DNA of 64,000 bases from Escherichia phage LHE287. Location of the stretch: the sequence record PP761450.1, one strand, 5' to 3'. The notes under the pieces were generated by a model. That model had not been told where the DNA came from, searched no databases, and saw only the letters and a list, made by a program, of their open reading frames with translations. Below are positions 9,815 to 52,188 of the stretch, piece after piece (the first letter of the stretch is position 1; the number at the start of each line of letters is the position of its first letter). Both the position numbers and the translations under genes were made by a program.

Positions 9815-10120
9815 GTGCAAGAACAATCCAAGTTCGGGGAAACCCCAGACAAGCATTCCGGTGATAGCGACATGGATGGTGTGATTATCTATGTGAACAA
9901 CTTCATTCGTCAGCAGGAGACTCCAACTCCTATCGGTGCAGCCAAGGCTCTTCATGATGTACTGGTGAAGATCGGCCAGCGCTCTGAAGCAGATGAAATC
10001 TTCTATAACTTCGACGACCAGTATAAAGTTAAGTTTGAAGAGAATGGCCACCCACAGGTTGCTGTGTTCTGGGCACCTTGGCTGGGCGGCGTGAGCTGGC
10101 GTATTGAGGATGCTGTGTAA
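9815..10120 (+). CDS. hypothetical protein (101 aa), GTG start
   Basis: GTG start with strong AGGAGGA RBS; stop overlaps the next start (TAATG). Confidence 0.5.
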   Translation: MQEQSKFGETPDKHSGDSDMDGVIIYVNNFIRQQETPTPIGAAKALHDVLVKIGQRSEADEIFYNFDDQYKVKFEENGHPQVAVFWAPWLGGVSWRIEDAV

Positions 10121-11037
10121 TGGCAAAAATTATCGTAGTGAAAGGAACCAGCGGTACGGGTAAGGGCACCCGTGTTGTCCAGTTCATCGAATGGCTGCGC
10201 ACTAAGCTGGAGCCTACCGAACTGACCTACACCGTTGGTGACAAGACTCGCCCGTTTGGCTTGAAGTTCGGAGAGCTGAAGTTAATCTTCGTTGGACAGT
10301 ACACCGTGTCTAACAAATCCGGCCTGGCTTCCTGGACTTCAATGGATGCAATCCATGCTGCTACAGGCTCAGGCGATATTGCTCGTGATCTAATCAAGTG
10401 CTGGTTGGTTCAGGGATACACTCTGGTGTGCGAGGGTGAACCCCTCATGCTGTCGGACAAATGGCGTCCTGAATGGATGTTCAAGAACTATCCGATTGAA
10501 TCATTGGCGCTGCTGTACTTTGCGTACCCCGACCGCTATCAGTACGATGCTCGTATCCGTGGTCGATCTGGTAAAGAAGCAGGGAACTCCGGCTGGTCGC
10601 GCAACGAATCTTACTACAAGGAGTTTGAGAAGTCGAAGGCCGAAATGCTGGCGCTGGGCTTCACTGTGGCTGTTGATGATTACAGCGGACAGGATATCCT
10701 GTATAAATCACCGGATGCCAACACCCAGGAGTTCACGACCAAACAGCAGTCCGAGTTGGCGGTACTACCGTTCGACGCCCCGCTGTGGGTTGTGGGTAAT
10801 GCGATTTGTCATCAGATACGCTCTGAACTGCGCGGTGTTGACATGCACACCAAAGACTTCTACGCCTACTGTGAAACCAATCCGATGACTCGTGAAATCG
10901 GCGGCCAGGATCCTTTGGCGCACAGAGTCCCTGAGAAGCCGCAGAAGGCATCCAAAACTAAAACCAAGGCGAGCGCCCAGCCAGAAGCAACGAAGGCAGC
11001 GTCGCGCTCTCTCCTTGACCTGATGAAGAAGGGGTGA
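10120..11037 (+). CDS. P-loop kinase, paralog of 51529..52188; candidate 5-hmdU DNA kinase
   Basis: Walker A GTSGTGKGT at the N-terminus, Walker-B-like LVCEGEP; shares motif order with the second P-loop protein; basic low-complexity C-terminus. Confidence 0.5.
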   Translation: MAKIIVVKGTSGTGKGTRVVQFIEWLRTKLEPTELTYTVGDKTRPFGLKFGELKLIFVGQYTVSNKSGLASWTSMDAIHAATGSGDIARDLIKCWLVQGYTLVCEGEPLMLSDKWRPEWMFKNYPIESLALLYFAYPDRYQYDARIRGRSGKEAGNSGWSRNESYYKEFEKSKAEMLALGFTVAVDDYSGQDILYKSPDANTQEFTTKQQSELAVLPFDAPLWVVGNAICHQIRSELRGVDMHTKDFYAYCETNPMTREIGGQDPLAHRVPEKPQKASKTKTKASAQPEATKAASRSLLDLMKKG

Positions 11038-11039
11038 TC

Positions 11040-11237
11040 ATGAAACGGTTGTCTAATTATCTGTTGTTCATTGGTCTGGTTATGGCAGCCGTTTCAATGT
11101 GTACTGCCCTAGCCTATCATTTCACCCCTCTGGACTTAACAACCTCAGAGAAGTTGAACGTGACTGTGATGTACTGTATTGGCGCGGTGATGTCTATCGG
11201 CGCTGCTGGTTACAAAATATTCAAGGAACCAAAATGA
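11040..11237 (+). CDS. small membrane protein (about 65 aa)
   Basis: Two hydrophobic segments; ATG with GGGGTGA RBS. Confidence 0.4.
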   Translation: MKRLSNYLLFIGLVMAAVSMCTALAYHFTPLDLTTSEKLNVTVMYCIGAVMSIGAAGYKIFKEPK

Positions 11238-11611
11238 AAATTCAAATTCCTCGCGATGCTGTGGCTGTTGCGATCGACTACACCGGAAACGCCAAGCACA
11301 TTACTGCCGTGCGCCTGATTCCTGAAAAGAACTGCGTCATCCCTCAGTTCCAACTGAATGCCAATCCGTCATCCAAAGACTTCGGCAAGTGGTTGCAGGC
11401 TGCTCCGTTCCGTACCCAGACGAACGCTCAGATGTTCATCTCGGGTAAGACTCACACTGCAGCCCGTCTGTGGTTCGTGACCGCTGACCGTCGCTTTGTC
11501 GATATGTGGGAACGTCCGATGGGGTTCGTGAAGCCGGAAGATATTCAGCTGGCTCCTGAGCCTGAAGCTGTGGCTCCTGAAGAGGAAGCGAAAGATGCAT
11601 CATTTATCTAA
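11234..11611 (+). CDS. hypothetical protein (125 aa)
   Basis: Start overlaps the upstream stop (ATGA); internal ATG of the track ORF 11099..11611. Confidence 0.45.
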   Translation: MKIQIPRDAVAVAIDYTGNAKHITAVRLIPEKNCVIPQFQLNANPSSKDFGKWLQAAPFRTQTNAQMFISGKTHTAARLWFVTADRRFVDMWERPMGFVKPEDIQLAPEPEAVAPEEEAKDASFI

Positions 11612-12830
11612 AATGCCGACGGGCTATACGCCTCCGGCTGAATGGAAGTACCCGATTGACCTGGCTGTTGATTATCGCAAGCCTGAGAATCGCATGTACC
11701 TGCTCAAGGCTTGGGTGGAGGCGCTGTCCTACACAGAAGAGCACAACCAGCAGATGCGTCTGATGGACTATGCGATCGAAGTCACTGAAGGCATCAGCCT
11801 CGAACAGAAAGTCGAGCGCAAGATCTGGATGGCATTCCTGTGGGGTTGTTGCTATAACGCCGTCGGGCCGTGGACGATCTACAGTGAGTTCCCTGTGCCA
11901 CCTCAGTCTAAGGAAGAGATGCAGCGCTTCTCTGATTGGTATAATCTGAACTTTGATCGCATGCGATTCGATACCGACTGTCGCTACCGCAAGTCCAAGA
12001 TGATTCCGTGTGTTCAGTCCTATATTGACTGGCTGGCTGGTCGTACTCAATATGACGCTTTCCGTGGGATGTTGGTGTGCATCGATAAGACAGAACAATT
12101 CACCCAGCTGTGGGACACGGCGATGTCCTGGAAATACTTCGGTCGCCTGAGCGCCTGGAACTTCCTAGAAGCCCTGAACATGGTCTTCGGGAACGAATAC
12201 ACCATTGACGTCCCTGGCTTCATGCTGCGTGATCGTGATGGAAGCGAGTCCAACCGTAATGGCGCGGCGTTCTTGTCCAACCGTGACGATTGGGTGACTA
12301 AACACGGGAAGAAAAAGATCAACGGTTGTCCTATCACGGATGAAGAGTGTGACATCCTTGAGGCCGACCTTGAGCAGGCGTTCCAGGATTGTGTGGCTGA
12401 GTTCGGGCACCTGACGTTCATCAACCGCCTGAACTTTGAAACCTCCGGCGCTTGTTGGCTGAAGAAATTCTTCCGACTGAAGAATACCCGTTACATCGGG
12501 TGGGACGCAGAGCGTACCTGGGATGAGATAGACTACATGGAACGCGTCTGGCCTGAATACTCCTGCGCAGCGCTCTGGGAAGCCCGTTCGCTCTGGCTGC
12601 CAGATACCCTGTTGTGCGAAAAGGCTCCTGCAGGGCACGTTCCAGGCGTCCAGAAGTGGAAGATGCCTGTATTCTTTGAGACTGGTGTTCCTCTGCATAT
12701 CTGGCACCTGCAAAAGGGTACGCGCTGGGAACCGTCCGAGGTGTGTACGAACCTGAAGATGCCTGTGCGTAAGGTTGAGGACAAGTCGAAGTCCAGCAGT
12801 GTCAACCTCATGGCACTCTTGAAACGCTGA
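11595..12830 (+). CDS. hypothetical protein (411 aa), Trp/Cys-rich; candidate DNA-modification enzyme
   Basis: ATG with GAGGAAG RBS; co-transcribed downstream of the P-loop kinase; no motif recognised by eye. Confidence 0.5.
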   Translation: MHHLSKMPTGYTPPAEWKYPIDLAVDYRKPENRMYLLKAWVEALSYTEEHNQQMRLMDYAIEVTEGISLEQKVERKIWMAFLWGCCYNAVGPWTIYSEFPVPPQSKEEMQRFSDWYNLNFDRMRFDTDCRYRKSKMIPCVQSYIDWLAGRTQYDAFRGMLVCIDKTEQFTQLWDTAMSWKYFGRLSAWNFLEALNMVFGNEYTIDVPGFMLRDRDGSESNRNGAAFLSNRDDWVTKHGKKKINGCPITDEECDILEADLEQAFQDCVAEFGHLTFINRLNFETSGACWLKKFFRLKNTRYIGWDAERTWDEIDYMERVWPEYSCAALWEARSLWLPDTLLCEKAPAGHVPGVQKWKMPVFFETGVPLHIWHLQKGTRWEPSEVCTNLKMPVRKVEDKSKSSSVNLMALLKR

Positions 12831-12863
12831 TATAAATATCCTCGCCTATAAAGCGAGGATATT
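12831..12863 (+). promoter_or_regulatory. T4-type late promoter TATAAATA overlapping an 11-bp hairpin that sequesters the downstream RBS
   Basis: TATAAATA at 12831-12838; perfect inverted repeat AATATCCTCGC-ctataaa-GCGAGGATATT; GAGGA RBS lies in the right arm; ATG at 12867. Confidence 0.5.
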
Positions 12864-12866
12864 ATC

Positions 12867-13034
12867 ATGTTACAAGATCTGCTGGTTTATGCGCTTCCTG
12901 GCGCGGTTGTCGGCTTCATCGCTGGTGCTCTGGTCTTCCGTAAACACGCGCAAGATGGTGAAGTGATTGTTCAGAAAGGCAAAGAGATTCTGGACCAGAT
13001 CGAAGCCAAACTGGAAGAGCTGAAGAAAAAGTAA
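12867..13034 (+). CDS. small single-pass membrane protein (55 aa), probably late-expressed
   Basis: MLQDLLVYALPGAVVGFIAGALVF hydrophobic helix then a charged coiled-coil-like tail; absent from the ORF track because shorter than 60 aa. Confidence 0.45.
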   Translation: MLQDLLVYALPGAVVGFIAGALVFRKHAQDGEVIVQKGKEILDQIEAKLEELKKK

Positions 13035-13057
13035 TCTGACTGGGTTGCTTCCTTCAA

Positions 13058-13099
13058 TAAAGGGGAATGGGTTATTATTAGCCCGTTCCCCTTTCTTTT
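13058..13099 (+). terminator. rho-independent terminator
   Basis: AAAGGGGAATGGG-ttattattag-CCCGTTCCCCTTT followed by CTTTTT. Confidence 0.6.
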
Positions 13100-13201
13100 T
13101 GCAAGAATATACATCATGGCAATGCAACGAATTGAAGATATGTCTCTACTCAACATGGAAGCGACTTTTAGCGCTTCCGTTATCGTCATGGGAGAATCCA
13201 A

Positions 13202-13420
13202 ATGATCAAGAATACCCGAACAATGAAGCGCGCAATCGCTCACTGTGTCCATTCAGTGGCAACTATTATGTTCCGCCACCACATCACATTTGATGAAGCA
13301 CTGGACCCACAGTACCATGAAGAGCGTTGGGATTTGTTGTTAAAGAACGGCGCCAATCCTGAGCATAAAGATCAACTCCTTGGGATGACCAAGGCGCAGC
13401 TCGTCGGTGAATCCAAATGA
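13202..13420 (+). CDS. hypothetical protein (72 aa)
   Basis: ATG with GGAGA RBS; stop overlaps the next start. Confidence 0.45.
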   Translation: MIKNTRTMKRAIAHCVHSVATIMFRHHITFDEALDPQYHEERWDLLLKNGANPEHKDQLLGMTKAQLVGESK

Positions 13421-14532
13421 TCTACCTCCTGTTTGGTGTGCCATTGGTACTGGCTATCCTGTTTGTGACCTACCATCGCAAGACCCATGAGCCGAAAGAG
13501 ACTCTGATAGCGACCGCGATTGTAGTGGTGCTATCCTGTCTGATTCAGGCGGGGACTTATGCTGCGTTCTCCCTTGGCAGTTCAGGGGATGTTGAGATCC
13601 TGAACGGGTACGTCACTGCAAAGGAGCGGAATAAGGTGAGCTGTGAGCATTCATATGAATGCAACTGCTACTACACCACATCGTGCTCCGGCTCCGGCAG
13701 CAGCAAGTCCTGTACCCGCACTCGCCATTGCAGTACATGTTATGAGCATTCATACGACATAGATTGGGATGTGCTGACAACCGTTGGCAACCTGACGATT
13801 GATCGTATTGATCGCCGTGGTCTTAGTCAGCCCCCGCGCTGGGCGCAGGTTCAGATCGGCGAACCCGCAGCCCGTGAGCATTCCTACATGAACTATGTGC
13901 TGGGTAACAAGGACTCTCTGTTCTCTCGTTCAGACCAGCAGTTTGCTGAGCGCTTCAAAGACAAGATTCCGAAGTATCCCGAAGTCTATGACTACTATCG
14001 TGTCACTCGTGTACTGAATGTGTCTGGTCTGGCGTTACCGACCACATACTGGAACGATTATCTGAACAATACTCTGAAAACATTAGGTGCTTCACGTCAG
14101 GTCAATATCGTCTGGGTTGTGACTTCCGGCCAGCCAGTTGAATACTTCCAGGGCTTGGTCTATGCTTGGGATGGTGGTAAAAAGAACGACGTTATCGTCG
14201 TGACCGACATCAGCAAAGATCTGAAGATCAACTGGGGTAAGAGCACTTCGTTCGCTGATGGTATGCATAACCGTGAACTCCATTCTCGTAATGGCATGGC
14301 TCTCACAGGTCACGACATGGGCGTCGGTGTCATGGCTGATGTTGTCGCTAACATCACCAAAGGCTACAACCGCGTTGAGATGAAGGAAATGGAGTACCTG
14401 AAGTGGCGGGAACTCAAGACCTGGGAAGTTGTGATTGTTGTTCTGCTAGGCTGTCTGCCGTTCACCGCAATTTTCATATTACAGCGAATGGAGTACAATG
14501 GTGGCCGTCGTCGTTATCCGTTTAATTTTTAA
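13417..14532 (+). CDS. Cys-rich membrane protein with N- and C-terminal TM helices (371 aa)
   Basis: N-terminal helix MIYLLFGVPLVLAILFV, repeated EHSY(E)C / C-x-C motifs, C-terminal helix VVIVVLLGCLPFTAIFIL; sits immediately upstream of the LemA-like gene. Confidence 0.5.
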   Translation: MIYLLFGVPLVLAILFVTYHRKTHEPKETLIATAIVVVLSCLIQAGTYAAFSLGSSGDVEILNGYVTAKERNKVSCEHSYECNCYYTTSCSGSGSSKSCTRTRHCSTCYEHSYDIDWDVLTTVGNLTIDRIDRRGLSQPPRWAQVQIGEPAAREHSYMNYVLGNKDSLFSRSDQQFAERFKDKIPKYPEVYDYYRVTRVLNVSGLALPTTYWNDYLNNTLKTLGASRQVNIVWVVTSGQPVEYFQGLVYAWDGGKKNDVIVVTDISKDLKINWGKSTSFADGMHNRELHSRNGMALTGHDMGVGVMADVVANITKGYNRVEMKEMEYLKWRELKTWEVVIVVLLGCLPFTAIFILQRMEYNGGRRRYPFNF

Positions 14533-14550
14533 TCAAAAGAGGAAGTAAGA

Positions 14551-15120
14551 ATGTCTCAATCTAAGGGTATCGCAACAGGTTGGATAGTTGGTTTGGCTTT
14601 GCTGGGTATAGTGATTCTCGGCATCAGTACAGTCATCAGCTACTTCAACGACTTCAACCGCACTGAGCAGCAGGTCAAGAAGTTCAACAAAGACTCCGAG
14701 AACTACCTGAGCAACTACACGCTCAAAGTTCAGGAGACGGCGCAGATTCCTGACATGTATAAAGACGGCCTGAAGGAAGTGATCAAAGGCACGTTCGAAG
14801 GGCGTTATGGCGCTGATGGTTCCAAGGCCGTCATGCAGTGGATCCAGGAGCAGAATATTCAGTTCGATTCCAGCCTGTACAAAGAGATCCAGGTGGTGAT
14901 CAGTTCTGGGCGTGATGAATTCCGCATCAGCCAGACCAAGAAGCTGGATATCTGCACAATATACGAAACCAAGCTGGCTCAGTTCCCTGGTTCGTTGATT
15001 GCTGGCATGTTCGGCTACCCGCGTATCGACCTTGACAAGACCTGCCAGGTGGTGAGCGATACCCGTACCCAGGCCGCGTTCGACGCTGGTATTCAGAAAC
15101 CGATTAACTTCAAAGGCTGA
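14551..15120 (+). CDS. LemA-family-like membrane protein (189 aa)
   Basis: N-terminal TM helix; C-terminal region RISQTKKLDICTIYETKLAQFPGSLIAGMFGY matches the LemA pattern R-I-x(n)-FP-x(4)-A-x(2)-FG-F/Y; AAGAGGAAG RBS. Confidence 0.45.
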   Translation: MSQSKGIATGWIVGLALLGIVILGISTVISYFNDFNRTEQQVKKFNKDSENYLSNYTLKVQETAQIPDMYKDGLKEVIKGTFEGRYGADGSKAVMQWIQEQNIQFDSSLYKEIQVVISSGRDEFRISQTKKLDICTIYETKLAQFPGSLIAGMFGYPRIDLDKTCQVVSDTRTQAAFDAGIQKPINFKG

Positions 15121-15124
15121 TGTC

Positions 15125-15538: not shown

Positions 15539-15552
15539 TCGTTCTTCAATAA

Positions 15553-15586
15553 AAGGGGATAGGGTATTATTGCTCTATCCCTTTTT
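15553..15586 (+). terminator. rho-independent terminator
   Basis: GGGGATAGGG-tattattg-CTCTATCCC followed by TTTTT; preceded by a TTCAATAAA box. Confidence 0.6.
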
Positions 15587-15650
15587 CGTGGACAAGGAAC
15601 ATGACAGACAATCCAAGAAAGATGAAGAACAAACGCCGGAGCAAACGCTG

Positions 15651-29934: not shown

Positions 29935-30530
29935 CCACATATGTAATCAACGGTGGCGATTTACTGAAAGCCGCCTGTAGCTTCAATCTGATCGACATCT
30001 TTGCCCACGGTGCCAACTGTTGGTCTACCATGGGCGCGGGCATTGCTCTGCACATCGGTAACAACTTCCCAGCCCTGCGTGAAGTCGATGCGAACGACCC
30101 TCGTGGTCCAGAGCAACGCCTGGGTGGTATGTCCTATGCATTTGACCACAGCAAGGGCGTTTGGGGCGCGAACCTCTACACTCAGTTCTATCCAGGTCCG
30201 AACGCTCGCATGCCGTCTGTCATCAGTTCTGTTCAGATGTTATTCGAGCAGGTTCACGAAATTGTGGAAGCAACTAAAGACGAAACTGTCTATGTCGGCC
30301 TGCCTGCTATCGGCTGTGGTATTGGTGGTCTGAACCTCTACAGTGTAGTGCGTCATATCAATCGAATCTCTGAAAGCGTGTATGAAGAGACCCGCCGTCG
30401 TGTCGTCCCAGTCTTCTATATCAGGGAAGGAGACGGATTCGATGATGATCTGATGGAACTTTCTCATCTGGACACAGAAGGTATCATGATTGTCGAAGAT
30501 GAGCAAGAAATCATCGACGAGGAGGCGTAA
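29931..30530 (+). CDS. macro-domain protein (ADP-ribose binding / hydrolase family)
   Basis: IFAHGANCWSTMGAGIALHIG resembles the macro NAAN...GGGV.GAI motif; later VYVGLPAIGCGIGGL; start moved to the internal ATG with GGAGA RBS. Confidence 0.55.
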   Translation: MTTYVINGGDLLKAACSFNLIDIFAHGANCWSTMGAGIALHIGNNFPALREVDANDPRGPEQRLGGMSYAFDHSKGVWGANLYTQFYPGPNARMPSVISSVQMLFEQVHEIVEATKDETVYVGLPAIGCGIGGLNLYSVVRHINRISESVYEETRRRVVPVFYIREGDGFDDDLMELSHLDTEGIMIVEDEQEIIDEEA

Positions 30531-31163
30531 ATGTACAAGTCTAATTTCCTTGCAGTTGCCGACAGCGAAACCCTGGGTCGCTGGGATGATGCAGTCATGT
30601 TGTCCTGGGCGCACACCATCGCCGACCTGACCAAGCGTTATACTCTTCAGCAGCTGGTTGAGGAGCGCACGACGTTCATTAAGCTGAATGTCAAAGAGCA
30701 GCTCGAACTTGGTCGCGTGAAGGACCAGGGGACGGTAGAATGGTGGCTGGGCACGGGCAAGCGCAACCCGTGTGATGCGGCTCGCGCCGTCAGTCTGTAC
30801 CCGACTGAGCAGGACATCTCTATCTTCCAGCTGGCCGATGAAATCCGCAAGGGTTGTCATCGTCTTGGGGTAGACCCGCGCTCGGTTGACTGGTGTGATC
30901 GCAACCTGTTTGATCTGCGCAAGGCTCAGCACATCATTGAGGTGACATGTAAGCAGGACTCCAACGAGCCATGGGACTACCACCACACCTTCGACATCGT
31001 GAGCTGGCTGAAGGGTGTTGGGCAACAGGATCGCTACGCTGGCATCAAGGCGTGGGAACTGGAAGGTATGGTCTATCACGACCCTCGTTATGACGCTGCG
31101 CTTGACTGGCTGCGTATTCAGAAGACCATGGAAGATCTGATGGGTCTGGAGGTTGTGGGATGA
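30531..31163 (+). CDS. DEDD-family 3'-5' exonuclease (DnaQ-like; T4 DexA-like)
   Basis: Exo I motif FLAVADSETLG (D-x-E); later YHHTFDIVSW and YHDPRYDA resemble Exo II / Exo III. Confidence 0.45.
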   Translation: MYKSNFLAVADSETLGRWDDAVMLSWAHTIADLTKRYTLQQLVEERTTFIKLNVKEQLELGRVKDQGTVEWWLGTGKRNPCDAARAVSLYPTEQDISIFQLADEIRKGCHRLGVDPRSVDWCDRNLFDLRKAQHIIEVTCKQDSNEPWDYHHTFDIVSWLKGVGQQDRYAGIKAWELEGMVYHDPRYDAALDWLRIQKTMEDLMGLEVVG

Positions 31164-41500: not shown

Positions 41501-42931
41501 TCACCCATTACCCTTCTCCAACAGGAATGTGATGTTTTCGATGTACGCTTTCTGTATCGCATAGACTTCATCCAGTGTGTTGGCCACTTTCTTGTCAATG
41601 CGGACTTCTACAAGGCGAGGTAGGAACAAAGACTTCATCGCATCATCGGTCTTATCCTGTACGCCATTGGAGAGCACTGCGGCGATCTTGCCAATGTAGT
41701 CGCCCTGGTTCTCCCACATATGGCGTCTCAGCTCATCTGAGATCCCTGATACGCCAACAACAAGCAGGCTGTCGGAAGTTTTACAAATCAGTGAGCCAAA
41801 AGTCTTGGCGTGTTTGCCTTTCTTGTCGGCCTCGTTGAATCCCACGATTTCAAGGTCACACTCAACCTCCATCTTCAGCTTCAGACCTTCAGAAGAAGTA
41901 CCATCTTCCCAAGGCATGTCGGCGGCCTTACATATCGTGCCTTCTTCTTTGCGAGCCAGCGCGTCTTTGAAGTGGTCGACGGCTTCGGCAAATGAGTGAA
42001 CAACGCGGGTTTCTTGAACCTGAACCAGACCGTCGTCTTCATCAAACAGTTGCTGGATGATATCGAAGCGGCGCTCATACGGGGTGTCCACGCGCTGGGC
42101 GTTGAACCAGTTGTCGTACGGGATAACATCCCACACCCGGTAGATTACCCGATAACGATCTTCCAGGGGTTCTCCTGTCTGAATCACGCTGTTGAGTTTA
42201 CCGTTACCGACAGCACGAGGCAGGATGGTATTCGACTTGAGGTCAACAACGAGAAGTTCACCATGGAACACACTCTCACCAATCCCCGCATCGTAGATCA
42301 GGTCTTTGAACACCAGTGAAAGGTTATCAACCGAACCACCTGCGATAAGGGAACCGGAGCGAGAGCGAATCTCAGGTTCTTTATTGTACCGACATATGAT
42401 GTTGGCGAACATACCGTCTGACTTCAGCTGGCTGTAGACGCCGCGCTTGAAGTCCATCTTCTTCAGCAGGTCAATCGTCATGTTGTCATAACGATGATAT
42501 GGAAGGATGTTGATCAGGCGTCCAGTGCCTCCGGCGGCGTTGAATGCAGCGTTGATACCCTTCTCTGCGATACCCGCCTTGATATCACGGTCTAGGATCA
42601 TCTGAATGAGTTCGTGGTATTGGGGATCCATCTTCAGGGCGACAGAGGCCAACAGGGCATCAGCCTTTTGGCCACCGACAAGGCGCTGCGCCATCTGGTC
42701 GAGGACGTCATAGACTTCGCTGATGTCATCAGTCTTCTCACGGACGAGCATGCGAGGGTACGCGCTGAGCTTCAACTCAGTCCGATAGAACGACGTCATT
42801 GGGTCATAGACATATTGCAGGAAGTCTGCCAAGTCTGGGTTATTCTTGAATGCTTCGGTCAGCACAGCTTTCTTCGCATTGCTGCCTTTGGTTTCGCGAA
42901 GTCGGTGGACTGTTTCAAGGATAGGGATCAT
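41501..42931 (-). CDS. 30: ATP-dependent DNA ligase (T4 gp30-like), 476 aa
   Basis: Adenylation motif SQLKSDGMF (KxDG); size matches T4 ligase; GGAGA RBS. Confidence 0.85.
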   Translation of the reverse strand: MIPILETVHRLRETKGSNAKKAVLTEAFKNNPDLADFLQYVYDPMTSFYRTELKLSAYPRMLVREKTDDISEVYDVLDQMAQRLVGGQKADALLASVALKMDPQYHELIQMILDRDIKAGIAEKGINAAFNAAGGTGRLINILPYHRYDNMTIDLLKKMDFKRGVYSQLKSDGMFANIICRYNKEPEIRSRSGSLIAGGSVDNLSLVFKDLIYDAGIGESVFHGELLVVDLKSNTILPRAVGNGKLNSVIQTGEPLEDRYRVIYRVWDVIPYDNWFNAQRVDTPYERRFDIIQQLFDEDDGLVQVQETRVVHSFAEAVDHFKDALARKEEGTICKAADMPWEDGTSSEGLKLKMEVECDLEIVGFNEADKKGKHAKTFGSLICKTSDSLLVVGVSGISDELRRHMWENQGDYIGKIAAVLSNGVQDKTDDAMKSLFLPRLVEVRIDKKVANTLDEVYAIQKAYIENITFLLEKGNG

Positions 42932-43640: not shown

Positions 43641-43853
43641 TCACTTCCTCATCAGTGAGAGTAGGTTGACCGTAGCCGGACGCGCATCAGGGGCGTAGAA
43701 GACGTCCTGAGAGTGCCTCTTACAGCACGGGCAATCCTTCGTGGCGATTACACAGGGAGCCTTGTCCACGGCAAATCCAGCGGCTTCGGCTTCCTTCACA
43801 GTGGTGAATGGCATGTAGGCACTTGTACCCTGCCCTCCGCATGAACATTCCAT
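43641..43853 (-). CDS. small Cys-rich protein (about 70 aa)
   Basis: ECSCGG ... KDCPCCKRH; ATG start one codon inside the track start. Confidence 0.4.
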   Translation of the reverse strand: MECSCGGQGTSAYMPFTTVKEAEAAGFAVDKAPCVIATKDCPCCKRHSQDVFYAPDARPATVNLLSLMRK

Positions 43854-43969
43854 CAACGTTTCCTCTTAAAGGGGATGACCAGGGCTATGATGAGAAGCAT
43901 AGCTGTAATCATCCCACATGCTATCAGACCAAAGGCGAACGACTTCAGAACAAACTCAATCAAATTCAT
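43853..43969 (-). CDS. small hydrophobic peptide (38 aa), not in the ORF track
   Basis: MNLIEFVLKSFAFGLIACGMITAMLLIIALVIPFKRKR; GAGGAAATT RBS; ATGA and TGATG overlaps with both neighbours. Confidence 0.3.
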   Translation of the reverse strand: MNLIEFVLKSFAFGLIACGMITAMLLIIALVIPFKRKR

Positions 43970-45268: not shown

Positions 45269-45285
45269 CTTGGTGTTCGATTGAC

Positions 45286-45600: not shown

Positions 45601-45615
45601 TTGGTGTTCCTCTTG

Positions 45616-45951: not shown

Positions 45952-46015
45952 GATGTGCTCCTGGTTTACATTCAGATCATAGAATTATACCCTATGACCC
46001 GCTTTATTGAATTGC

Positions 46016-47440: not shown

Positions 47441-47446
47441 TGGCCA

Positions 47447-47776
47447 CTACCCCACCAAAAATTTATTATATTCCTGAGCATTACGCTGCATGAGGTCTAC
47501 AAGGATATCCCCTGACACCTCAGTGAACAAGTCATTTTCTTTCAAATTCACAAACATCAGACGCAATGGTTTCTTCAATATATCAGTCACGAAAGACAGG
47601 CGGGGTTCGCCGTCCACTTCGTTGATGGCCACCTTGCCGAACCGGAATTGAACACCACGGAATTTGCCAGAAGTGATCTTGATGATCGCCAGCTGATCAG
47701 CACCAGGGTCGATGATTGTGTAGTTATTGGGGGAGTCTCCTCCCCCTCCACTGTTATTCGCTTGTGTTAATAACAT
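47447..47776 (-). CDS. hypothetical protein, in the position of T4 gene 40
   Basis: Short ORF between the uvsX and helicase genes; start uncertain (the track ORF overlaps uvsX by 74 nt). Confidence 0.3.
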   Translation of the reverse strand: MLLTQANNSGGGGDSPNNYTIIDPGADQLAIIKITSGKFRGVQFRFGKVAINEVDGEPRLSFVTDILKKPLRLMFVNLKENDLFTEVSGDILVDLMQRNAQEYNKFLVG

Positions 47777-48839
47777 GGTCCATTTGCTCCAGCATGTTAG
47801 CAGGCATAACAGTACCGTTAGAAACACCGAACATTTTCTTCACGTCATCGGCGAAGTTGACATTCTCCAGCAGCGGATACCAGAAATCATCATCCATCTG
47901 ACGCTTCTGATATTTCTTTTCCTTCTCAGGATCGAAACCACCCTTGGCTGTACGCACATACCAACCGGAAGACGGCATATCAACATAACCCAGAGCACGA
48001 GCGATCTCAAGCAGGCCGCTCCAGCGATCAATACCACCGTTGTACAGTACCGTCACAGGGAGCTTGGCTTTCTCTTTGACATGGCGACCTTTCATGATGC
48101 TTATGTTGAAGTTCCAACCCAGCAGATCTTTGTCTTCCTTCACCTGAGAACGGGTGATAAACCAGATCAAGTTGGATGATAAGAAGCCCTGCTTGCCGCC
48201 TTTGATGTTGGGCTCGGCATACTGGTTGCCGATCTCATCGTAATAGGAGTTGATCCAAACACACACGAGATTTTTGCTGTTGATTTCGGGAGTCATGACA
48301 CGCCAGAAGCTGTTAAGGGCACGGGCGCGGGTCATGTCTTGAGTGTCGTTCCCTTTGATCGCATCTTCAACTTCCTTGGTGGAGGGAAGTTGGCTGATAG
48401 AGTCGATGAAGATTATAACATGGTCGCCTTTCTTGACTTCCTGTAGGATCTGCAGCAAGCGGATCTTGGTCTGTTCAACGTTGTCGATCGGTACGTACAG
48501 GACGCGGTCCATGTCAATGCCCATAGAGGTCCAGTAATCGGCGTTGGCACCCTTTTCTGAGTCCGCAAAGACGCAGATAGCATCAGGGAACTTGTCCATG
48601 TACGCCTTGACGTCTACCAGACCGAACATCGTTTTGAAGGTACGGGAATCACCCACCATCATCTTGATACCGGAGATCAGACCGCCGTCAATACGCCCAG
48701 ACCATGCGATATCGATCAGGGGAATACCAGTAGAACAGATGATAGACGGTTCCAGAGCGTCGGATTTGGACAGCACTGAAGCCTGGTCATCGTGTTTCTT
48801 AGCAACCTTCAGCATGCGGTCCATTAATGAACTGGCCAT
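47754..48839 (-). CDS. uvsX: UvsX recombinase (RecA-like)
   Basis: RecA-type N-terminal ICSTGIPLID region, core ATPase; position upstream of the helicase as in T4. Confidence 0.75.
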   Translation of the reverse strand: MASSLMDRMLKVAKKHDDQASVLSKSDALEPSIICSTGIPLIDIAWSGRIDGGLISGIKMMVGDSRTFKTMFGLVDVKAYMDKFPDAICVFADSEKGANADYWTSMGIDMDRVLYVPIDNVEQTKIRLLQILQEVKKGDHVIIFIDSISQLPSTKEVEDAIKGNDTQDMTRARALNSFWRVMTPEINSKNLVCVWINSYYDEIGNQYAEPNIKGGKQGFLSSNLIWFITRSQVKEDKDLLGWNFNISIMKGRHVKEKAKLPVTVLYNGGIDRWSGLLEIARALGYVDMPSSGWYVRTAKGGFDPEKEKKYQKRQMDDDFWYPLLENVNFADDVKKMFGVSNGTVMPANMLEQMDHVINTSE

Positions 48840-49366
48840 TTCACTTCCTCTTTATTGTTGATCGTCGTTAATAATTCTACACCCATAACCTTCTGGGACA
48901 AAATGTTAACCGCCTCTTGGATGCTCTTCAGGGACATTGTCTCAACAAGTGACGATGCGTCATTATGCCGGTCGGTTAGGTACATATTGCGCAGATTGTT
49001 GTAGTTCGTGCGGTTGATGCACGCAGTGTTCAGTGCTATATTCAGGATATACATCATCTGTTCAATGGTTACATCCTTTGGCATAGCGTGGATGTAATAG
49101 ATCGAGCCTTCAAAATAGACGTCTACCAGTTCATCTGGTATCTTGATGCCACCACCGGCATACTCTTCGATCATCCTGAACAGAGACTCTGGTTGCTCGC
49201 TGGCGATCTTATGCGTAACAGTCGCCGAAAGACCGTCGCCCGGTTTAACAGGCCTGGTGTATTCGGTAAAGAATACATTATGACCGCCGCCGATGATGTG
49301 CTCGGCGAAATTAGCGGATGCGTTCGCCGCGTTGTCTGCATGATATGAAACGACGACTGTAAACAT
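48824..49366 (-). CDS. hypothetical protein (180 aa)
   Basis: Translationally coupled within the nucleotide-metabolism operon; no motif recognised. Confidence 0.45.
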   Translation of the reverse strand: MFTVVVSYHADNAANASANFAEHIIGGGHNVFFTEYTRPVKPGDGLSATVTHKIASEQPESLFRMIEEYAGGGIKIPDELVDVYFEGSIYYIHAMPKDVTIEQMMYILNIALNTACINRTNYNNLRNMYLTDRHNDASSLVETMSLKSIQEAVNILSQKVMGVELLTTINNKEEVKWPVH

Positions 49367-49920
49367 TAGAACTCCAGGGTCAGAGGGGTTTCTGCGGACT
49401 TATCGTAACCCGCACCGCCAGCAGCACGCAGACGGTTGCGATCGTTCTTGCGTTTGTGTGCCAGTATGTAAGTCTCAATGTCGATCTCCATATAAGAACA
49501 CGCAGACGACAGGAAGAACATGAGAGTCTCAACGCAAGGATCGTTCATGAATTGCCCAAGGCGGTACGTAACATTGCGATGCCCTACAACACCCAAAGCA
49601 GATGGGGTGAATTCGCGATTACTAAGGACTTCAAATTCTTCTTCGATCTCACCTTTGGTGCGGTCCACAAGGATGAAGCACAACATGAAGTGTACCACGT
49701 CTACCAGTTCATAAACTGCGTTCGTATGGTCAAACCCGATGTCGTTGCCATAGACCTTCCAGTCACGGGTGGTTTCATCAAGGAACTCTGCCCACTCACG
49801 ATAGATAGAGTTGATGACTGCGTTCTGACTCCATACATTCTTCCACTCTTCCCCAAAGTAGGCCACGTTAGTGGCCTTTTGGAGTTCGAGCAGGCTTTTG
49901 ATATGCCCTGCTGTGATCAT
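49366..49920 (-). CDS. all-alpha NTP pyrophosphohydrolase (MazG / dimeric dUTPase-like; T4 gp56-like dNTPase)
   Basis: Acidic helix pattern NAVYELVDVVHFML ... EIEEEFE; placed between the dNMP kinase and recombination genes. Confidence 0.4.
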   Translation of the reverse strand: MITAGHIKSLLELQKATNVAYFGEEWKNVWSQNAVINSIYREWAEFLDETTRDWKVYGNDIGFDHTNAVYELVDVVHFMLCFILVDRTKGEIEEEFEVLSNREFTPSALGVVGHRNVTYRLGQFMNDPCVETLMFFLSSACSYMEIDIETYILAHKRKNDRNRLRAAGGAGYDKSAETPLTLEF

Positions 49921-50486
49921 TTACGTTCTCCGTAGAATTTAACGAACGGTGCCCAACCATCAAATGGATTGAGGAATTCGTAGTCCACTTTCATTTGGTC
50001 AATGAAAGCCTCTATATCGTCCTCTATGATACCAGCACGGTCGGCCTTTGAAATACGGGTGATAGGACATTTCGTACTCAGCGCCCATTCATATTCCTGA
50101 GGGGTACGCAGATCGCTCACGATATAATGGACGTGGGGGTTCTGCTCTACCAGAGGAAGCTGGAAGCGCTTGAAGAATGCCAGGAACAGATCGGGTTGTA
50201 CGTAACGCAAGCCCGTATCGCTGCCTAGATGAAGCCAGATCTGCCGTGGAGTTAAGCCCTTGGGGTTATCAGGGTGCACGTAAGGAACGTCCTTCACGGC
50301 ATCCTCTACCTCCGCTGGCAGCCATGGATAGATGTAGTTGGCCACACGGCGCAGTTCATCTGAGAACGAAAGGCGCTGGATGTCCATATCACCCTGTAGT
50401 TGGTGATAGCTGATGAGGGACTCCAAACAGAAGTCCTTACCGGAGCGCTTGCGCCCCGTAAAGAATTCAAGATTTGGATACATCAT
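49917..50486 (-). CDS. 1: deoxynucleoside monophosphate kinase (T4 gene 1-like)
   Basis: P-loop GRKRSGKD matches the T4 dNMP kinase GxKRSGKD signature; overlaps ThyA-like gene by ATGA. Confidence 0.65.
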   Translation of the reverse strand: MMYPNLEFFTGRKRSGKDFCLESLISYHQLQGDMDIQRLSFSDELRRVANYIYPWLPAEVEDAVKDVPYVHPDNPKGLTPRQIWLHLGSDTGLRYVQPDLFLAFFKRFQLPLVEQNPHVHYIVSDLRTPQEYEWALSTKCPITRISKADRAGIIEDDIEAFIDQMKVDYEFLNPFDGWAPFVKFYGERK

Positions 50487-51529
50487 ACTACACCTTCCAG
50501 GAACTTAGGATCAATGATCTTGCGGTCAACCGGGGAATGGGTGAGCGCGATGTTCAAGCCATGATCCTGAATCAGGTCCAGGTTAATGAGCTTTTCGTTC
50601 AGTTTGCAGTGCAGACAGTACGCCATCTGTACAATCAGGCCACGATCAGCATCATATTCCTTCAGGTGGGCGACCACAGTTTCCCACGGGCTGCCGATAT
50701 CACAGTGATGAAGCACACCAGTGAACAGATTGCGGATATGGTTCTGGTTGGTCACGTTCGTGAAGTGAATCATGGAGTTGATGAACCCAGCTTCTACTTT
50801 GGTGTCCTTCGTGATCTTGCCAAGCTGCTTCTGGCTGACTTCATTGTTGTAGTAATGAAGATTGTTAGAGAATAGCTTGTACTGACCGACATCAACATCT
50901 AACACCTGAGCAATCACTTCCTGAAGAATAGAGAACTCAATGAAGTTGATTGAACTCATCCCCCACAGAACATCCTGTGAGCGGTTGATGACCGTCAGGT
51001 TCAGACGACCTTCAACGATGGAGAACAACAGAGCCAGATTACACACCATGTCCTTGGTCTTCGCTTCGCCGCTCTCGCTGAACTTCGCCAGACCAGCATC
51101 CGAATCTAGAGCCGGGTCATAGATGGTGAGGTACGCCTGGCGAGTGTTTGGGTTCTTGCGCAGGCGGTTGATAACGCTATCCAGCTGGCCATGGGCGTAC
51201 AGACGCGGACCATAAGCAGCTCGCCATGTTACCCCATCATCCGAAAAGTTAGCAGCGCGAGGCAATACGCGTGACAGGAACTTTATGTCGTTGCGACCTG
51301 ACAACACCCAGAAGGTCTCGCCGATGGCAGCGATAGCCGATGAGTTGCGACCTTCAACGGAGAGCCAGCGGTCACGGATGTCGGCGACGGTTATGGTCAC
51401 GCCATCAAGGAAGCGGGTGCTATCAGTATTGATTTCAGCATTACCAGGATCAGATTCGATCCCGAATTCACGGATAGCCAAGACAGCCTGCTTCAGCATG
51501 TCATTGTTGTTAATTGCTTTGATTTCCAT
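50483..51529 (-). CDS. thymidylate-synthase-family enzyme; candidate dUMP hydroxymethylase
   Basis: ThyA-fold motifs RQAYLTIYDP, Cys in KDMVCNLALLF, and NRSQDVLWGMSSINFIEFSIL (RSxD ... NI/F region; Asn suggests a dUMP substrate); the hydroxymethylase role is inferred from context. Confidence 0.6.
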   Translation of the reverse strand: MEIKAINNNDMLKQAVLAIREFGIESDPGNAEINTDSTRFLDGVTITVADIRDRWLSVEGRNSSAIAAIGETFWVLSGRNDIKFLSRVLPRAANFSDDGVTWRAAYGPRLYAHGQLDSVINRLRKNPNTRQAYLTIYDPALDSDAGLAKFSESGEAKTKDMVCNLALLFSIVEGRLNLTVINRSQDVLWGMSSINFIEFSILQEVIAQVLDVDVGQYKLFSNNLHYYNNEVSQKQLGKITKDTKVEAGFINSMIHFTNVTNQNHIRNLFTGVLHHCDIGSPWETVVAHLKEYDADRGLIVQMAYCLHCKLNEKLINLDLIQDHGLNIALTHSPVDRKIIDPKFLEGVV

Positions 51530-52188
51530 CAGATACTCCCAAAATCACGACAGAGGAATGCCATCACAGCCTGGTCTACTGTTAGGCCGTGAGACTTCAT
51601 CATACCCGCAGCCACCGTAGGGAACAAGTCTTTATGTCGTTGACGATGGTCATGAACTCTCTCCCACTTCTCGACCACCAGACTTTCATTGAAGTCCACA
51701 CCACCGTTACGTGATTTAACGCGGGAGATACACGTTTCAAGGGGAGTGTCCATAAAGAGCACAACCAATTCACGTGGTGGGCGTGTCAGGCGGGGGATCC
51801 AAGAACTCAATAATGTGGATGGAATGATACCTTCGAAAATCACATCATATTTCAAGTATTCTGGTTGGTCAGCAATAGACAACGCGAACAACATCTGCTC
51901 AGTGTCCTTCAGGGAATCAACCCCCTTGGACTTCGACTTGTCATATTTACCGATACAGACCACGTTGAACGAAGGACAGACAGTCAGCATGACCTTGCCG
52001 TTATGGGTCACGACATACGCCTGAGGATCCCTCTCCGCCAGCTGAGACGGCACAGTGGATTTACCGCTACCATTGGAGCCTTTGACGTAGTAGATTTGCC
52101 CTCGTGCTGGGTAGATCCCCTTTACGACGGGTGGTTTAAAGAATGTGTGGACGGGGCGCTTCATCAGCCCCTTCAGGGAGTAGGACAT
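51529..52188 (-). CDS. P-loop kinase, paralog of 10120..11037
   Basis: Walker A GSNGSGKST, Walker-B-like DVIFEGIIP; same motif order as the other P-loop kinase; first gene of the coupled operon. Confidence 0.5.
   Translation of the reverse strand: MSYSLKGLMKRPVHTFFKPPVVKGIYPARGQIYYVKGSNGSGKSTVPSQLAERDPQAYVVTHNGKVMLTVCPSFNVVCIGKYDKSKSKGVDSLKDTEQMLFALSIADQPEYLKYDVIFEGIIPSTLLSSWIPRLTRPPRELVVLFMDTPLETCISRVKSRNGGVDFNESLVVEKWERVHDHRQRHKDLFPTVAAGMMKSHGLTVDQAVMAFLCRDFGSI

What the first reader, a model, noticed from the sequence alone, without database searches (positions are those of the whole stretch)
10120..52188. Two paralogous P-loop kinases in one phage genome
10120..11037 and 51529..52188 share the same motif order: VKG[TS][SN]G[TS]GK[GS]T Walker A, a (V/I)G(Q/K)Y...SKSG/KSKG segment, then an EG-(E/I)-P Walker-B-like motif. 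One heads the nucleotide-metabolism operon, the other sits with the unknown 411-aa protein. Duplicated kinases suggest either two successive phosphorylations or two substrates (nucleotide and DNA).
Basis: seen in the sequence. Interest (0 to 1): 0.6.

Follow-up and report, generated by a model that had tools for sequence, protein, structure and literature searches.

The report
Two known 5-hmdU DNA kinase paralogs
The two genes are real but distant paralogs, already described in phage ViI as kinases that phosphorylate a modified thymine in DNA; one new detail is that only one of them ends in the same short tail as the phage DNA polymerase.

Summary
ORFs 10120-11037(+) and 51529-52188(-) carry the stated motifs in the stated order. 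They are specifically related: BLASTP E 7e-4, profile-profile 93% probability over 134 columns, and an unrelated P-loop kinase control at 0.2%.

The finding is already known. The ORFs match Pfam PF18747 (5-hmdU DNA kinase 2) and PF18748 (5-hmdU DNA kinase). They are 84% and 88% identical to Salmonella phage ViI gp243 and gp67. Lee et al. 2018 called those two paralogs, and Lee et al. 2021 showed that each alone adds one phosphate to 5-hmdU in DNA. The '411-aa unknown' is the ortholog of ViI gp247, the serine:DNA transferase. The window comes from an Ackermannviridae phage.

Only monophosphate was seen in vitro, both enzymes act on DNA, and lineages with only one kinase exist.

One extra finding may explain why there are two. 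Kinase 2, the transferase and ViI gp160 end in a short tail that matches the phage's own DNA polymerase C-terminus. The tail changes in step with the polymerase across lineages, and in a Vibrio phage the gp33 homolog carries it too. Kinase 1 has no such tail. This suggests, by inference only, that kinase 2 is tethered to the sliding clamp.

The parts
51529..52188 (-). Kinase 1: 5-hmdU DNA kinase (HMUDK/HMUD1 type), 219 aa, ortholog of ViI gp67. No polymerase-like tail.
   Evidence: Matches Pfam PF18748 at E 3.6e-109, 363 bits against a cutoff of 27. It is 88.1% identical to ViI gp67. The AF2 model has pLDDT 88, and N-terminal residues 8-12 form a strand within the fold. None of 27 family members carries a tail.
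10120..11037 (+). Kinase 2: 5-hmdU DNA kinase 2 (HMUD2 type), 305 aa, ortholog of ViI gp243. Layout: P-loop core about aa 1-178, extra alpha/beta domain about aa 182-253, disordered linker, then a C-terminal tail.
   Evidence: Matches Pfam PF18747 at E 1.5e-158, 527 bits against a cutoff of 25. It is 84.2% identical to ViI gp243. The AF2 model has pLDDT 79, with residues 270-296 below 50 and a helix at 298-303.
11008..11034 (+). C-terminal tail of kinase 2, SLLDLMKKG (aa 297-305). Proposed sliding-clamp-binding peptide.
   Evidence: It resembles the polymerase C-terminus of the same genome. A tail is present in 75 of 82 family members by automatic classification; five others carry variant tails, one is a C-terminally truncated fragment, and one (P0079, TTKNVFSFF) is unclear. 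It changes in step with the polymerase tail across lineages.
11595..12830 (+). Amino acid:DNA transferase (AADT / aGPT-Pplase clade 2), 411 aa, ortholog of ViI gp247 (serine:DNA transferase). Ends in ...SSVNLMALLKR.
   Evidence: Matches Pfam PF18724 at E 7.3e-60. It is 89.3% identical to ViI gp247. Its tail is the second-best match to the polymerase tail among 360 window ORFs.
5629..8628 (+). Family B DNA polymerase (T4 gp43-like), 999 aa. C-terminus ...RRVNLLAMMQKKKG is the reference tail.
   Evidence: Matches Pfam DNA_pol_B_exo1 and DNA_pol_B. The T4 gp43 C-terminus EKASLDFLFG binds the gp45 clamp (PMC6212786).
1660..2853 (+). PLP-dependent enzyme, ortholog of ViI gp226 (decarboxylase that converts O-serinyl-T to 5-NeOmdU). 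No tail.
   Evidence: Matches Pfam PALP at E 1.5e-7, 31.5 bits, which is below Pfam's gathering cutoff of 35. It is 91.2% identical to ViI gp226. The function of gp226 is from PMC8989533.
50483..51529 (-). Thymidylate-synthase homolog, presumed dUMP hydroxymethylase that makes 5-hmdUMP. Its start codon overlaps the kinase-1 stop codon.
   Evidence: Matches Pfam Thymidylat_synt at E 2.9e-16 and phrog_3676. The junction reads ATCTGATGG.
49917..50486 (-). T4-type dNMP kinase. This is the nucleotide kinase of the precursor pathway, distinct from both DNA kinases.
   Evidence: Matches phrog_139 at E 4.9e-47. hhalign against both kinase profiles gives probability 0.2% or less.
49366..49920 (-). dUTPase_2-family nucleotide pyrophosphohydrolase in the same operon.
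   Evidence: Matches Pfam PF08761 at E 6.2e-9.
43641..43856 (-). Small Cys-rich 71-aa protein ending in ...ATVNLLSLMRK. It is the best match to the polymerase tail in the window. Function unknown.
   Evidence: Its ViI ortholog Vi01_049c also ranks first of 795 ORFs. It has no Pfam match.
57496..57741 (-). gp33 homolog (late transcription co-activator, a known clamp ligand in T4). Its tail ...ARLIKDALKSKKLV is only loosely similar in this lineage.
   Evidence: ViI annotates the ortholog as Gp33. In Vibrio phage K469 the gp33 homolog ends in ...KTKRLF, the same tail type as that phage's polymerase and kinase 2.

Best explanation
Identity. The two ORFs are the Ackermannviridae pair of 5-hmdU DNA kinases. 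The 219-aa ORF is kinase 1 (the ViI gp67 type, PF18748). The 305-aa ORF is kinase 2 (the ViI gp243 type, PF18747).

Pathway.
1. The phage makes 5-hmdUTP with the operon headed by kinase 1: a thymidylate-synthase-like dUMP hydroxymethylase, a dNMP kinase and a dUTPase-family enzyme.
2. Its family B polymerase incorporates 5-hmdU into DNA.
3. Either kinase then transfers the gamma-phosphate of ATP to the 5-hydroxymethyl group of 5-hmdU in DNA, giving 5-PmdU.
4. The 411-aa amino acid:DNA transferase replaces the phosphate with the side-chain oxygen of serine.
5. The PLP enzyme at 1660-2853 decarboxylates the product to 5-(2-aminoethoxy)methyl-dU.
These steps were shown for the ViI orthologs, not for this phage.

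Why two kinases (inferred). The two enzymes do the same chemistry but are deployed differently. Kinase 2 has an extra domain, a disordered linker and a C-terminal peptide like that of the phage DNA polymerase. It is therefore probably tethered to the gp45-type sliding clamp and acts on newly made DNA, together with the similarly tailed transferases. Kinase 1 is a minimal, untethered enzyme.
For: Identity:
- Pfam scores are far above the cutoffs.
- Identity to ViI proteins is 84-91% for kinase 2, kinase 1, the transferase, the PLP enzyme and the polymerase.
- Gene order matches ViI.

Biochemistry of the orthologs:
- PMC8989533.
- PMC5889632 Table 3, which lists 'Kinase' gp67 and 'Kinase2' gp243.

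Paralogy.

Tail inference:
- Window tails are RRVNLLAMMQKKKG (polymerase), SRSLLDLMKKG (kinase 2) and SSVNLMALLKR (transferase).
- In the whole ViI genome, with the polymerase tail as query, gp247, gp243 and gp160 rank 3rd, 4th and 5th of 795 ORFs.
- The tails change together across lineages. In L010 the polymerase has NLMAKMMATKK and the transferase NLMAKMLASKG. In L011 the tails are VNLLNLLNRK (polymerase), VNILDKMKWGKK (kinase 2) and VNIFNLINK (transferase).
- In Vibrio phage K469 the tails are ARKLW, TKKLW, TRKLW and TKRLW. In L012 they are GKKLW, ARRLF, AKRLF and SKRLW.
- In L013 the tails are RSVFDLF and KSVLDLF, which resemble T4 gp43 SLDFLF.
- The K469 gp33 homolog ends in KTKRLF, and T4 gp33 and gp43 bind the clamp through their C-termini (PMC2988020; PMC6212786).
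- The AF2 model shows a disordered linker followed by a terminal helix.
- Tails are found in 75 of 82 kinase-2 homologs and in 0 of 27 kinase-1 homologs.
- ViI and K469 both encode a gp45 clamp and clamp loaders.
Against: - No binding to a clamp was tested, and no complex could be modelled with these tools.
- The enteric-type tails are hydrophobic and basic, whereas the T4 motif is hydrophobic and acidic.
- In this window's lineage the gp33 tail is only loosely similar, and the gp55 tail shows no motif.
- The shared tail could bind some other common partner, or DNA.
- The published in vitro assays show that kinase 2 works without any clamp, so tethering is not needed for catalysis.
- The final modification in this particular phage was not measured. 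It is assumed from 84-91% identity to ViI enzymes.
Confidence: 0.8

Rival explanations
1. The two kinases differ in sequence-context or strand preference. Together they would set which roughly half of the thymines become hypermodified. This is compatible with the tethering model.
For: Flodman et al. 2019 (PMC6449724) infer a TG/TC bias for modified sites and attribute it to the kinase. M6 gp54 phosphorylated only about 23% of 5-hmdU in SP8 DNA. The middle motifs of the two families differ consistently: GKYDKSKSKGVDSL versus GQYTVSNKSGLASWTSMD.
Against: No specificity data for gp67 versus gp243 are reported in the papers read. Phages with a single kinase also show partial modification.
Confidence: 0.3
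2. Successive phosphorylation. One kinase makes 5-PmdU and the other extends it to the pyrophosphate 5-PPmdU, which is the true leaving group.
For: Older labelling work on SP10 and PhiW-14 proposed a pyrophosphorylated intermediate (cited in PMC5889632). The papers read do not describe an assay in which the two purified ViI kinases were combined and 5-PPmdU was looked for.
Against: Each ViI kinase alone gives the same monophosphate product, and no pyrophosphate was seen at 5 mM ATP. The monophosphate is sufficient for the transferase. PhiW-14, one of the phages for which the pyrophosphate was proposed, has no kinase 2. Kinase-1-only and kinase-2-only lineages exist.
Confidence: 0.05
3. Different substrates. 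One enzyme phosphorylates the free nucleotide 5-hmdUMP and the other phosphorylates DNA.
For: Kinase 1 sits in the nucleotide-precursor operon, with overlapping start and stop codons linking it to the dUMP hydroxymethylase. It gives weak matches to a PHROG annotated as thymidylate kinase and to the Pfam AAA_33 and Zeta_toxin families.
Against: ViI gp67, which is 88% identical, phosphorylates 5-hmdU in DNA. A dedicated T4-type dNMP kinase lies two genes downstream. M6 gp54 is of the kinase-1 type and is the sole DNA kinase in that phage.
Confidence: 0.04
4. The shared motifs are generic P-loop features and the two proteins belong to unrelated kinase families.
Against: hhalign gives 93% probability over 134 columns that include non-P-loop motifs. 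The kinase-1 HMM finds kinase 2 and all its homologs but no other P-loop protein. The control kinase scores 0.2%. Both ViI enzymes have the same unusual activity.
Confidence: 0.03

Closest known systems
[quoted passage not shown]
   Same: It is 88% identical to the 219-aa ORF. It has the same position at the head of the thyA-like / dNMP kinase / dUTPase operon and the same length and motifs.
   Different: Nothing of substance differs. The window protein lacks the final Asp. In RefSeq and PHROGs it is widely mislabelled 'terminase small subunit'.
Salmonella phage ViI gp243 (YP_004327565), 'Kinase2', Pfam PF18747 HMUD2
   Same: It is 84% identical to the 305-aa ORF. The neighbours are the same: DNA polymerase upstream and gp247 downstream. 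The ViI protein phosphorylates 5-hmdU DNA in vitro.
   Different: Nothing of substance differs. The polymerase-like C-terminal tail described here is present in both but is not mentioned in the papers read.
Pseudomonas phage M6 gp54 and PhiW-14 gp37 (single 5-HMUDK phages)
   Same: They have the same chemistry and the same family as kinase 1. tblastn from kinase 1 reaches M6/YuA-like phages at about 30% identity.
   Different: These phages have one kinase only, no kinase 2, and different downstream enzymes and final bases.
T4/RB69 gp45 sliding-clamp ligands: gp43 C-terminus EKASLDFLFG, the gp33 and gp55 C-termini, and the DNA ligase loop
   Same: All have a short hydrophobic peptide at the extreme C-terminus after a variable flexible linker. 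The peptide is shared between the polymerase and other proteins of the same phage (PMC6212786 and PMC2988020). The L013 kinase-2 tail RSVFDLF is close to the T4 motif.
   Different: The tails here are on base-modifying enzymes. In the enteric lineage they are basic rather than acidic. Binding has not been tested.
Polynucleotide kinases (T4 Pnk, Clostridium Pnkp, fungal Trl1 kinase) and adenylate/gluconate kinase-like P-loop kinases
Eukaryotic DNMT1-PCNA tethering (from my own knowledge, not tested here)
   Same: It is a conceptual analogue: a DNA-modifying enzyme carries a clamp-binding peptide so that it acts on newly replicated DNA.
   Different: The proteins, the clamp and the chemistry are unrelated. 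It is only an analogy.

Membership tests
Pfam PF18748 HMUDK_HMUD1 (5-hmdU DNA kinase): ORF 51529-52188 | Match to the family model above the curated cutoff, over the full length | tested here: met
   363.2 bits against a cutoff of 27. Residues 14-208 match profile positions 1-195 of 196.
Pfam PF18748 HMUDK_HMUD1 (5-hmdU DNA kinase): ORF 51529-52188 | Intact P-loop kinase catalytic motifs (Walker A GxxGxGK[ST], Walker B hhhhEG, Arg-rich lid) | tested here: met
   The motifs GSNGSGKST, DVIFEG and RVKSRNGG are present. G40, G42, K43, S44, T45, E119, G120 and R160 are invariant in 17 homologs.
Pfam PF18748 HMUDK_HMUD1 (5-hmdU DNA kinase): ORF 51529-52188 | Genome also encodes a dUMP hydroxymethylase and an amino acid:DNA transferase | tested here: met
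   A thymidylate-synthase homolog is adjacent, and PF18724 lies at 11595-12830.
Pfam PF18748 HMUDK_HMUD1 (5-hmdU DNA kinase): ORF 51529-52188 | ATP-dependent phosphorylation of 5-hmdU in DNA | not testable with these tools
   This was shown for ViI gp67, which is 88% identical (PMC8989533; identity).
Pfam PF18747 HMUD2 (5-hmdU DNA kinase 2): ORF 10120-11037 | Match to the family model above the curated cutoff, over the full length | tested here: met
   527.1 bits against a cutoff of 25. Residues 1-304 match profile positions 1-298 of 298.
Pfam PF18747 HMUD2 (5-hmdU DNA kinase 2): ORF 10120-11037 | Intact P-loop kinase motifs | tested here: met
   The motifs GTSGTGKGT, VCEGE and ARIRGRSGK are present. 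G9, S11, G14, K15, G16, E105, G106, E107, R145 and R149 are invariant in 18 homologs.
Pfam PF18747 HMUD2 (5-hmdU DNA kinase 2): ORF 10120-11037 | Kinase activity on 5-hmdU DNA | not testable with these tools
   This was shown for ViI gp243, which is 84% identical (identity).
Paralogy of the two kinase families | Significant similarity beyond the P-loop, specific relative to other P-loop kinases | tested here: met
   hhalign gives 93.4% probability and E 2.4e-7 over 134 columns. Controls give 0.2%. HMM cross-hits are at E 1.2e-5 in the window and 1e-7 to 0.02 in seven loci.
gp45-type sliding-clamp ligands (C-terminal clamp-binding peptide): kinase 2 | Short hydrophobic motif at the extreme C-terminus, after a flexible linker | tested here: met
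   In the AF2 model residues 270-296 have pLDDT below 50 and residues 298-303 form a helix. The linker is variable and low-complexity in the alignment.
gp45-type sliding-clamp ligands (C-terminal clamp-binding peptide): kinase 2 | Motif resembles that of the cognate replicative polymerase and changes with it between lineages | tested here: met
   Three tail types are shared by the kinase 2, transferase and (where present in the locus) gp160-type proteins within each lineage; two of the three types are also shared with the cognate polymerase, while in L013 no polymerase lies on the contig.
gp45-type sliding-clamp ligands (C-terminal clamp-binding peptide): kinase 2 | Motif shared with another established clamp ligand (gp33 or gp55) of the same phage | tested here: inconclusive
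   This is met in Vibrio phage K469, where gp33 ends in KTKRLF. In the window and ViI the gp33 tail is only loosely similar and gp55 shows no motif.
gp45-type sliding-clamp ligands (C-terminal clamp-binding peptide): kinase 2 | Physical binding to the clamp | not testable with these tools
   No multimer modelling or assay was available. The clamp gene lies outside the window and is annotated in ViI as Vi01_135c.
   No nucleotide-kinase Pfam family reaches its cutoff for either protein. The PHROG labels 'guanylate kinase' and 'thymidylate kinase' are family names only. The true dNMP kinase is 49917-50486.

The most novel reading that the evidence does not exclude
In T4-like phages that hypermodify thymine, the post-replicative modification enzymes carry the polymerase's own sliding-clamp-binding tail. 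These enzymes are kinase 2, the amino acid:DNA transferase and the gp160-type paralog. The modification machinery would then ride on the clamp behind the replication fork. On this reading, kinase 2 exists alongside kinase 1 because it is the replisome-tethered version of the enzyme. I did not find this idea in the papers I could search.
Probability: 0.6. Interest if true: 0.55.

Novelty: already known. Interest (0 to 1): 0.25.

Why it matters
The finding as written adds nothing new. The kinase pair, its paralogy and its activity were published for phage ViI in 2018 and 2021, and both families are in Pfam.

Its practical value is for annotation. Kinase 1 is widely labelled 'terminase small subunit' and kinase 2 'guanylate kinase' in RefSeq and PHROG-derived annotation.

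The tail observation could matter more. If it holds, it would explain physically how modification is coupled to replication. [quoted passage not shown] It would also give a reason for the second kinase and add base-modifying enzymes to the list of phage sliding-clamp clients. It can be tested directly with peptides and purified clamp.

Tried and rejected
1. The N-terminus of kinase 1 (MSYSLKGLMKR) as a second clamp motif. It resembles the ViI kinase-2 tail SLLGLMRK. However, residues 8-12 form a strand within the AF2 model, with pLDDT about 90 for residues 11-20. The segment is not conserved as a motif in more distant homologs. It also does not change to the KLW type in Vibrio phage K469. Rejected as unsupported.

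2. Suspicion that the Dickeya-phage kinase 2 had lost its Walker A, because the tblastn match starts at aa 21 under a 'homing endonuclease' annotation. Rejected. The 495-533-aa proteins are GIY-YIG/SegD endonuclease-kinase 2 fusions with an intact GTSGTGKG.

3. Sequence searches of the PDB with single proteins and with profiles found no solved relative, only P-loop-level matches.

4. The Foldseek search against BFVD returned mainly kinase-2 relatives and unnamed entries. It was not informative about kinase 1.

5. Iyer et al. 2013, the original prediction, is not held in the library. What it says is taken second-hand from Lee et al.

6. The strict tail pattern also picked up the tail-tube protein C-terminus (...SLLGILQDVMGK) and one antisense ORF. 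I treat these as chance matches.

Full report
**What is there.** ORF 10120-11037(+) encodes 305 aa and ORF 51529-52188(-) encodes 219 aa. The three quoted motifs are present in both, in the same order. BLASTP of the pair gives 24% identity over 168 residues, E 7e-4.

**Source of the window.** The window comes from an Ackermannviridae phage. The regions around both genes are 95-98% identical at nucleotide level to Escherichia phages AV101, A221 and RPN242. They are about 91% identical to Shigella phage Ag3. They match about 270 records from Salmonella, Klebsiella, Escherichia, Dickeya, Serratia and Shigella phages.

**Identity.**
- Pfam places the 305-aa protein in PF18747, '5-hmdU DNA kinase 2' (E 1.5e-158).
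- It places the 219-aa protein in PF18748, '5-hmdU DNA kinase' (E 3.6e-109).
- It places the '411-aa unknown' in PF18724, 'Amino acid:DNA transferase' (E 7e-60).
- Against Salmonella phage ViI, the proteins are 84% identical to gp243, 88% to gp67 and 89% to gp247.
- The PLP enzyme at 1660-2853 is 91% identical to gp226, and the polymerase is 86% identical.
- Gene order is the same as in ViI.

So four of the five ViI genes that Lee et al. used to reconstitute 5-(2-aminoethoxy)methyl-dU synthesis lie in this window.

**What is already published.**
- Lee et al. 2018 (PMC5889632) list gp67 as 'Kinase' and gp243 as 'Kinase2'. They state that the two are paralogs.
- Lee et al. 2021 (PMC8989533) show that purified ViI gp67 and ViI gp243 each convert 5-hmdU in SP8 DNA to a nucleotide 80 u heavier, identical to the product of M6 gp54.
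- In the same paper, ADP is the by-product, and only the monophosphate 5-PmdU is seen even at 5 mM ATP.
- The monophosphate is a competent substrate for the transferase. gp247 attaches serine through its hydroxyl, and gp226 decarboxylates the product.

The finding is therefore already known, and the pathway can be read directly onto the window:
- the thymidylate-synthase homolog (50483-51529);
- the dNMP kinase (49917-50486);
- the dUTPase-family enzyme (49366-49920);
- the polymerase (5629-8628);
- the two DNA kinases;
- the transferase (11595-12830);
- the decarboxylase (1660-2853).

- I built alignments of 18 kinase-2 and 17 kinase-1 homologs from the protein database.
- The profile-profile comparison gives 93.4% probability, E 2.4e-7. 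It covers 134 columns from Walker A through the G-x-Y...S-K motif and the Walker B E-G to the arginine-rich lid.
- The window's own dNMP kinase scores 0.2% and 0.15% against the same profiles.
- A kinase-1 HMM searched against all 361 window ORFs finds kinase 2 as its only other hit (E 1.2e-5). It does not find the other P-loop proteins.
- The same HMM finds every kinase-2 homolog in seven further loci.
- The reverse direction is weak: E 0.64, and no cross-hit between the Pfam models. The relationship is distant.
- AlphaFold2 models (pLDDT 79 and 88) show the same succession of elements, including a beta-hairpin after the P-loop helix.
- No solved 5-HMUDK structure was found. PMC11472151 says none existed in 2024.

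Successive phosphorylation and 'nucleotide versus DNA' both conflict with the published assays on the orthologs. They also conflict with the distribution of the genes.
- Kinase 1 occurs alone in M6-, YuA- and PaMx11-like Pseudomonas phages, and in Bordetella and Bacillus phages.
- Kinase 2 occurs in 65 Vibrio phage records, but only 45 Vibrio records hold kinase 1, whichever kinase-1 query is used.
- In contig L012 the slot between the gp69-like gene and the thymidylate-synthase homolog, where kinase 1 sits elsewhere, is empty.
- Within Ackermannviridae the two genes occur almost one-to-one: Salmonella 162/161, Klebsiella 45/45, Escherichia 28/28, Dickeya 19/19, Serratia 10/10, Shigella 6/6.

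Each kinase is thus sufficient on its own in some lineage.

**An observation beyond the finding.** While comparing the ends of the proteins, I noticed that three window proteins finish alike:
- DNA polymerase: ...RRVNLLAMMQKKKG.
- Kinase 2: ...SRSLLDLMKKG.
- Transferase: ...SSVNLMALLKR.

A strict pattern, L[LM]x[LM][LM] within the last 12 residues, hits 5 of 361 window ORFs where about 0.9 is expected. The five are these three proteins, a 71-aa Cys-rich protein (43641-43856) and one antisense ORF.

In the complete ViI genome, with the polymerase tail as query, the 70-aa ortholog ranks 1st of 795 ORFs. gp247 ranks 3rd, gp243 4th and gp160 (...GSVNLLDRLKKPE) 5th.

The tails change together between lineages:
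- phiMAM1: polymerase NLLSMMGKR, kinase 2 NLLAMLLRNKK, transferase NLLSMLGGKK.
- L010: polymerase NLMAKMMATKK, transferase NLMAKMLASKG.
- L011: polymerase VNLLNLLNRK, kinase 2 VNILDKMKWGKK, transferase VNIFNLINK.
- Vibrio phage K469: polymerase ARKLW, kinase 2 TKKLW, transferase TRKLW, gp160 homolog TKRLW. These three are the top three of 64 ORFs.
- L012: GKKLW, ARRLF, AKRLF, SKRLW.
- L013: kinase 2 RSVFDLF and gp160 homolog KSVLDLF, which look like the T4 gp43 tail.

**Why I read the tail as a sliding-clamp motif.**
- The C-terminus of T4 gp43 (EKASLDFLFG) and of the RB69 polymerase is the peptide that binds the gp45 clamp. T4 gp33 and gp55 carry similar, interchangeable C-terminal peptides on variable linkers (PMC6212786; PMC2988020).
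- In K469 the gp33 homolog ends in ...KTKRLF, the tail type of that phage's polymerase and kinase 2.
- The kinase-2 model has a disordered stretch at 270-296 followed by a terminal helix at 298-303.
- ViI and K469 both encode the clamp and its loaders. In ViI, gp160 lies three genes from them.
- Among database homologs, 75 of 82 kinase-2 proteins were classified automatically as tailed. Of the other seven, five carry variant tails, one (P0073) is a C-terminally truncated fragment, and one (P0079) ends in TTKNVFSFF, which fits none of the three types cleanly. None of 27 kinase-1 proteins has a tail.
- The kinase-1 N-terminus looks superficially similar, but it is part of the fold and does not co-vary.

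My reading is that kinase 2 is the clamp-tethered form of the enzyme and kinase 1 the free form.

**Limits of that reading.**
- It is an inference. No binding was tested.
- The enteric tails are basic rather than acidic.
- In this lineage gp33 and gp55 do not clearly share the motif.
- The word 'clamp' does not occur in this sense in the five hypermodification papers I checked: Lee et al. 2018 and 2021, PMC13458397, PMC11472151 and PMC6449724. PMC6449724 mentions the sliding clamp only in a list of replication genes. Two library searches found nothing relevant.
- I cannot exclude that it has been reported elsewhere.

**Verdict.** Interest in the finding as given is low. The tail observation is the only part that might be new, and I rate it separately.

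Noticed in passing
window 43641-43856 (-); ViI Vi01_049c (30355-30567): A 71-aa Cys-rich protein (CSCGG...CPCC) ends in ...ATVNLLSLMRK. This is the closest match to the DNA polymerase C-terminal tail in both genomes. It has no Pfam family and unknown function. It is possibly another client of the same partner.
   Followed up: partly
window 10110-10130, compared with L002 (RPN242) 2624-3310 and AV101: The closest relatives carry a roughly 680-bp SegD-like homing endonuclease gene inserted directly upstream of kinase 2. The window lacks it. In other lineages the endonuclease is fused in frame to kinase 2 (495-533-aa proteins P0061, P0069-P0072 and P0076, all with an intact Walker A).
   Followed up: partly
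ViI 87432-88655 (gp160, L006 40432-41655); K469 L003 11834-13018: The second DNA-glycosylase-like paralog (PF18723, aGPT-Pplase1) also carries the lineage-specific polymerase-like tail. Its role in the pathway is still undefined in the papers read. In ViI it lies three genes from the clamp loader and clamp genes. It is outside this window.
   Followed up: partly
window 51529-52188 and 10120-11037; RefSeq records: There is systematic mis-annotation. Kinase 1 falls in phrog_800 'terminase small subunit' and is so named in many RefSeq phage records. Kinase 2 is named 'guanylate kinase' (phrog_4409). Some records (ZQ1, A221) start kinase 1 at an internal Met, giving 174 aa and cutting off the Walker A.
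   Followed up: yes
L012 3215-7029: In a Vibrio-phage-like contig the DNA polymerase appears to be split. An 829-aa N-terminal part is followed by a 344-aa ORF with an intein-splicing Pfam hit. The clamp-type tail (GKKLW) is on that second ORF.
   Followed up: no
protein P0107 (379 aa): This metagenomic protein has two tandem kinase-1-type domains, each with its own Walker A (RGTSGSGKT and RGTNGSGKST). It shows that duplication of this kinase has also happened within a single gene.
   Followed up: no
window 41501-42931 (-): The ATP-dependent DNA ligase ends in ...ENITFLLEKGNG, a weaker resemblance to the tail (score 20). T4 ligase binds the clamp through an internal loop instead.
   Followed up: no
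K469 58223-58528 (L015 11223-11528): A 101-aa hypothetical protein (annotated CDS; 107 aa from the first start codon of the ORF scan) immediately upstream of the DNA ligase ends in ...KKPKTRKLW, the Vibrio-type tail.
   Followed up: no
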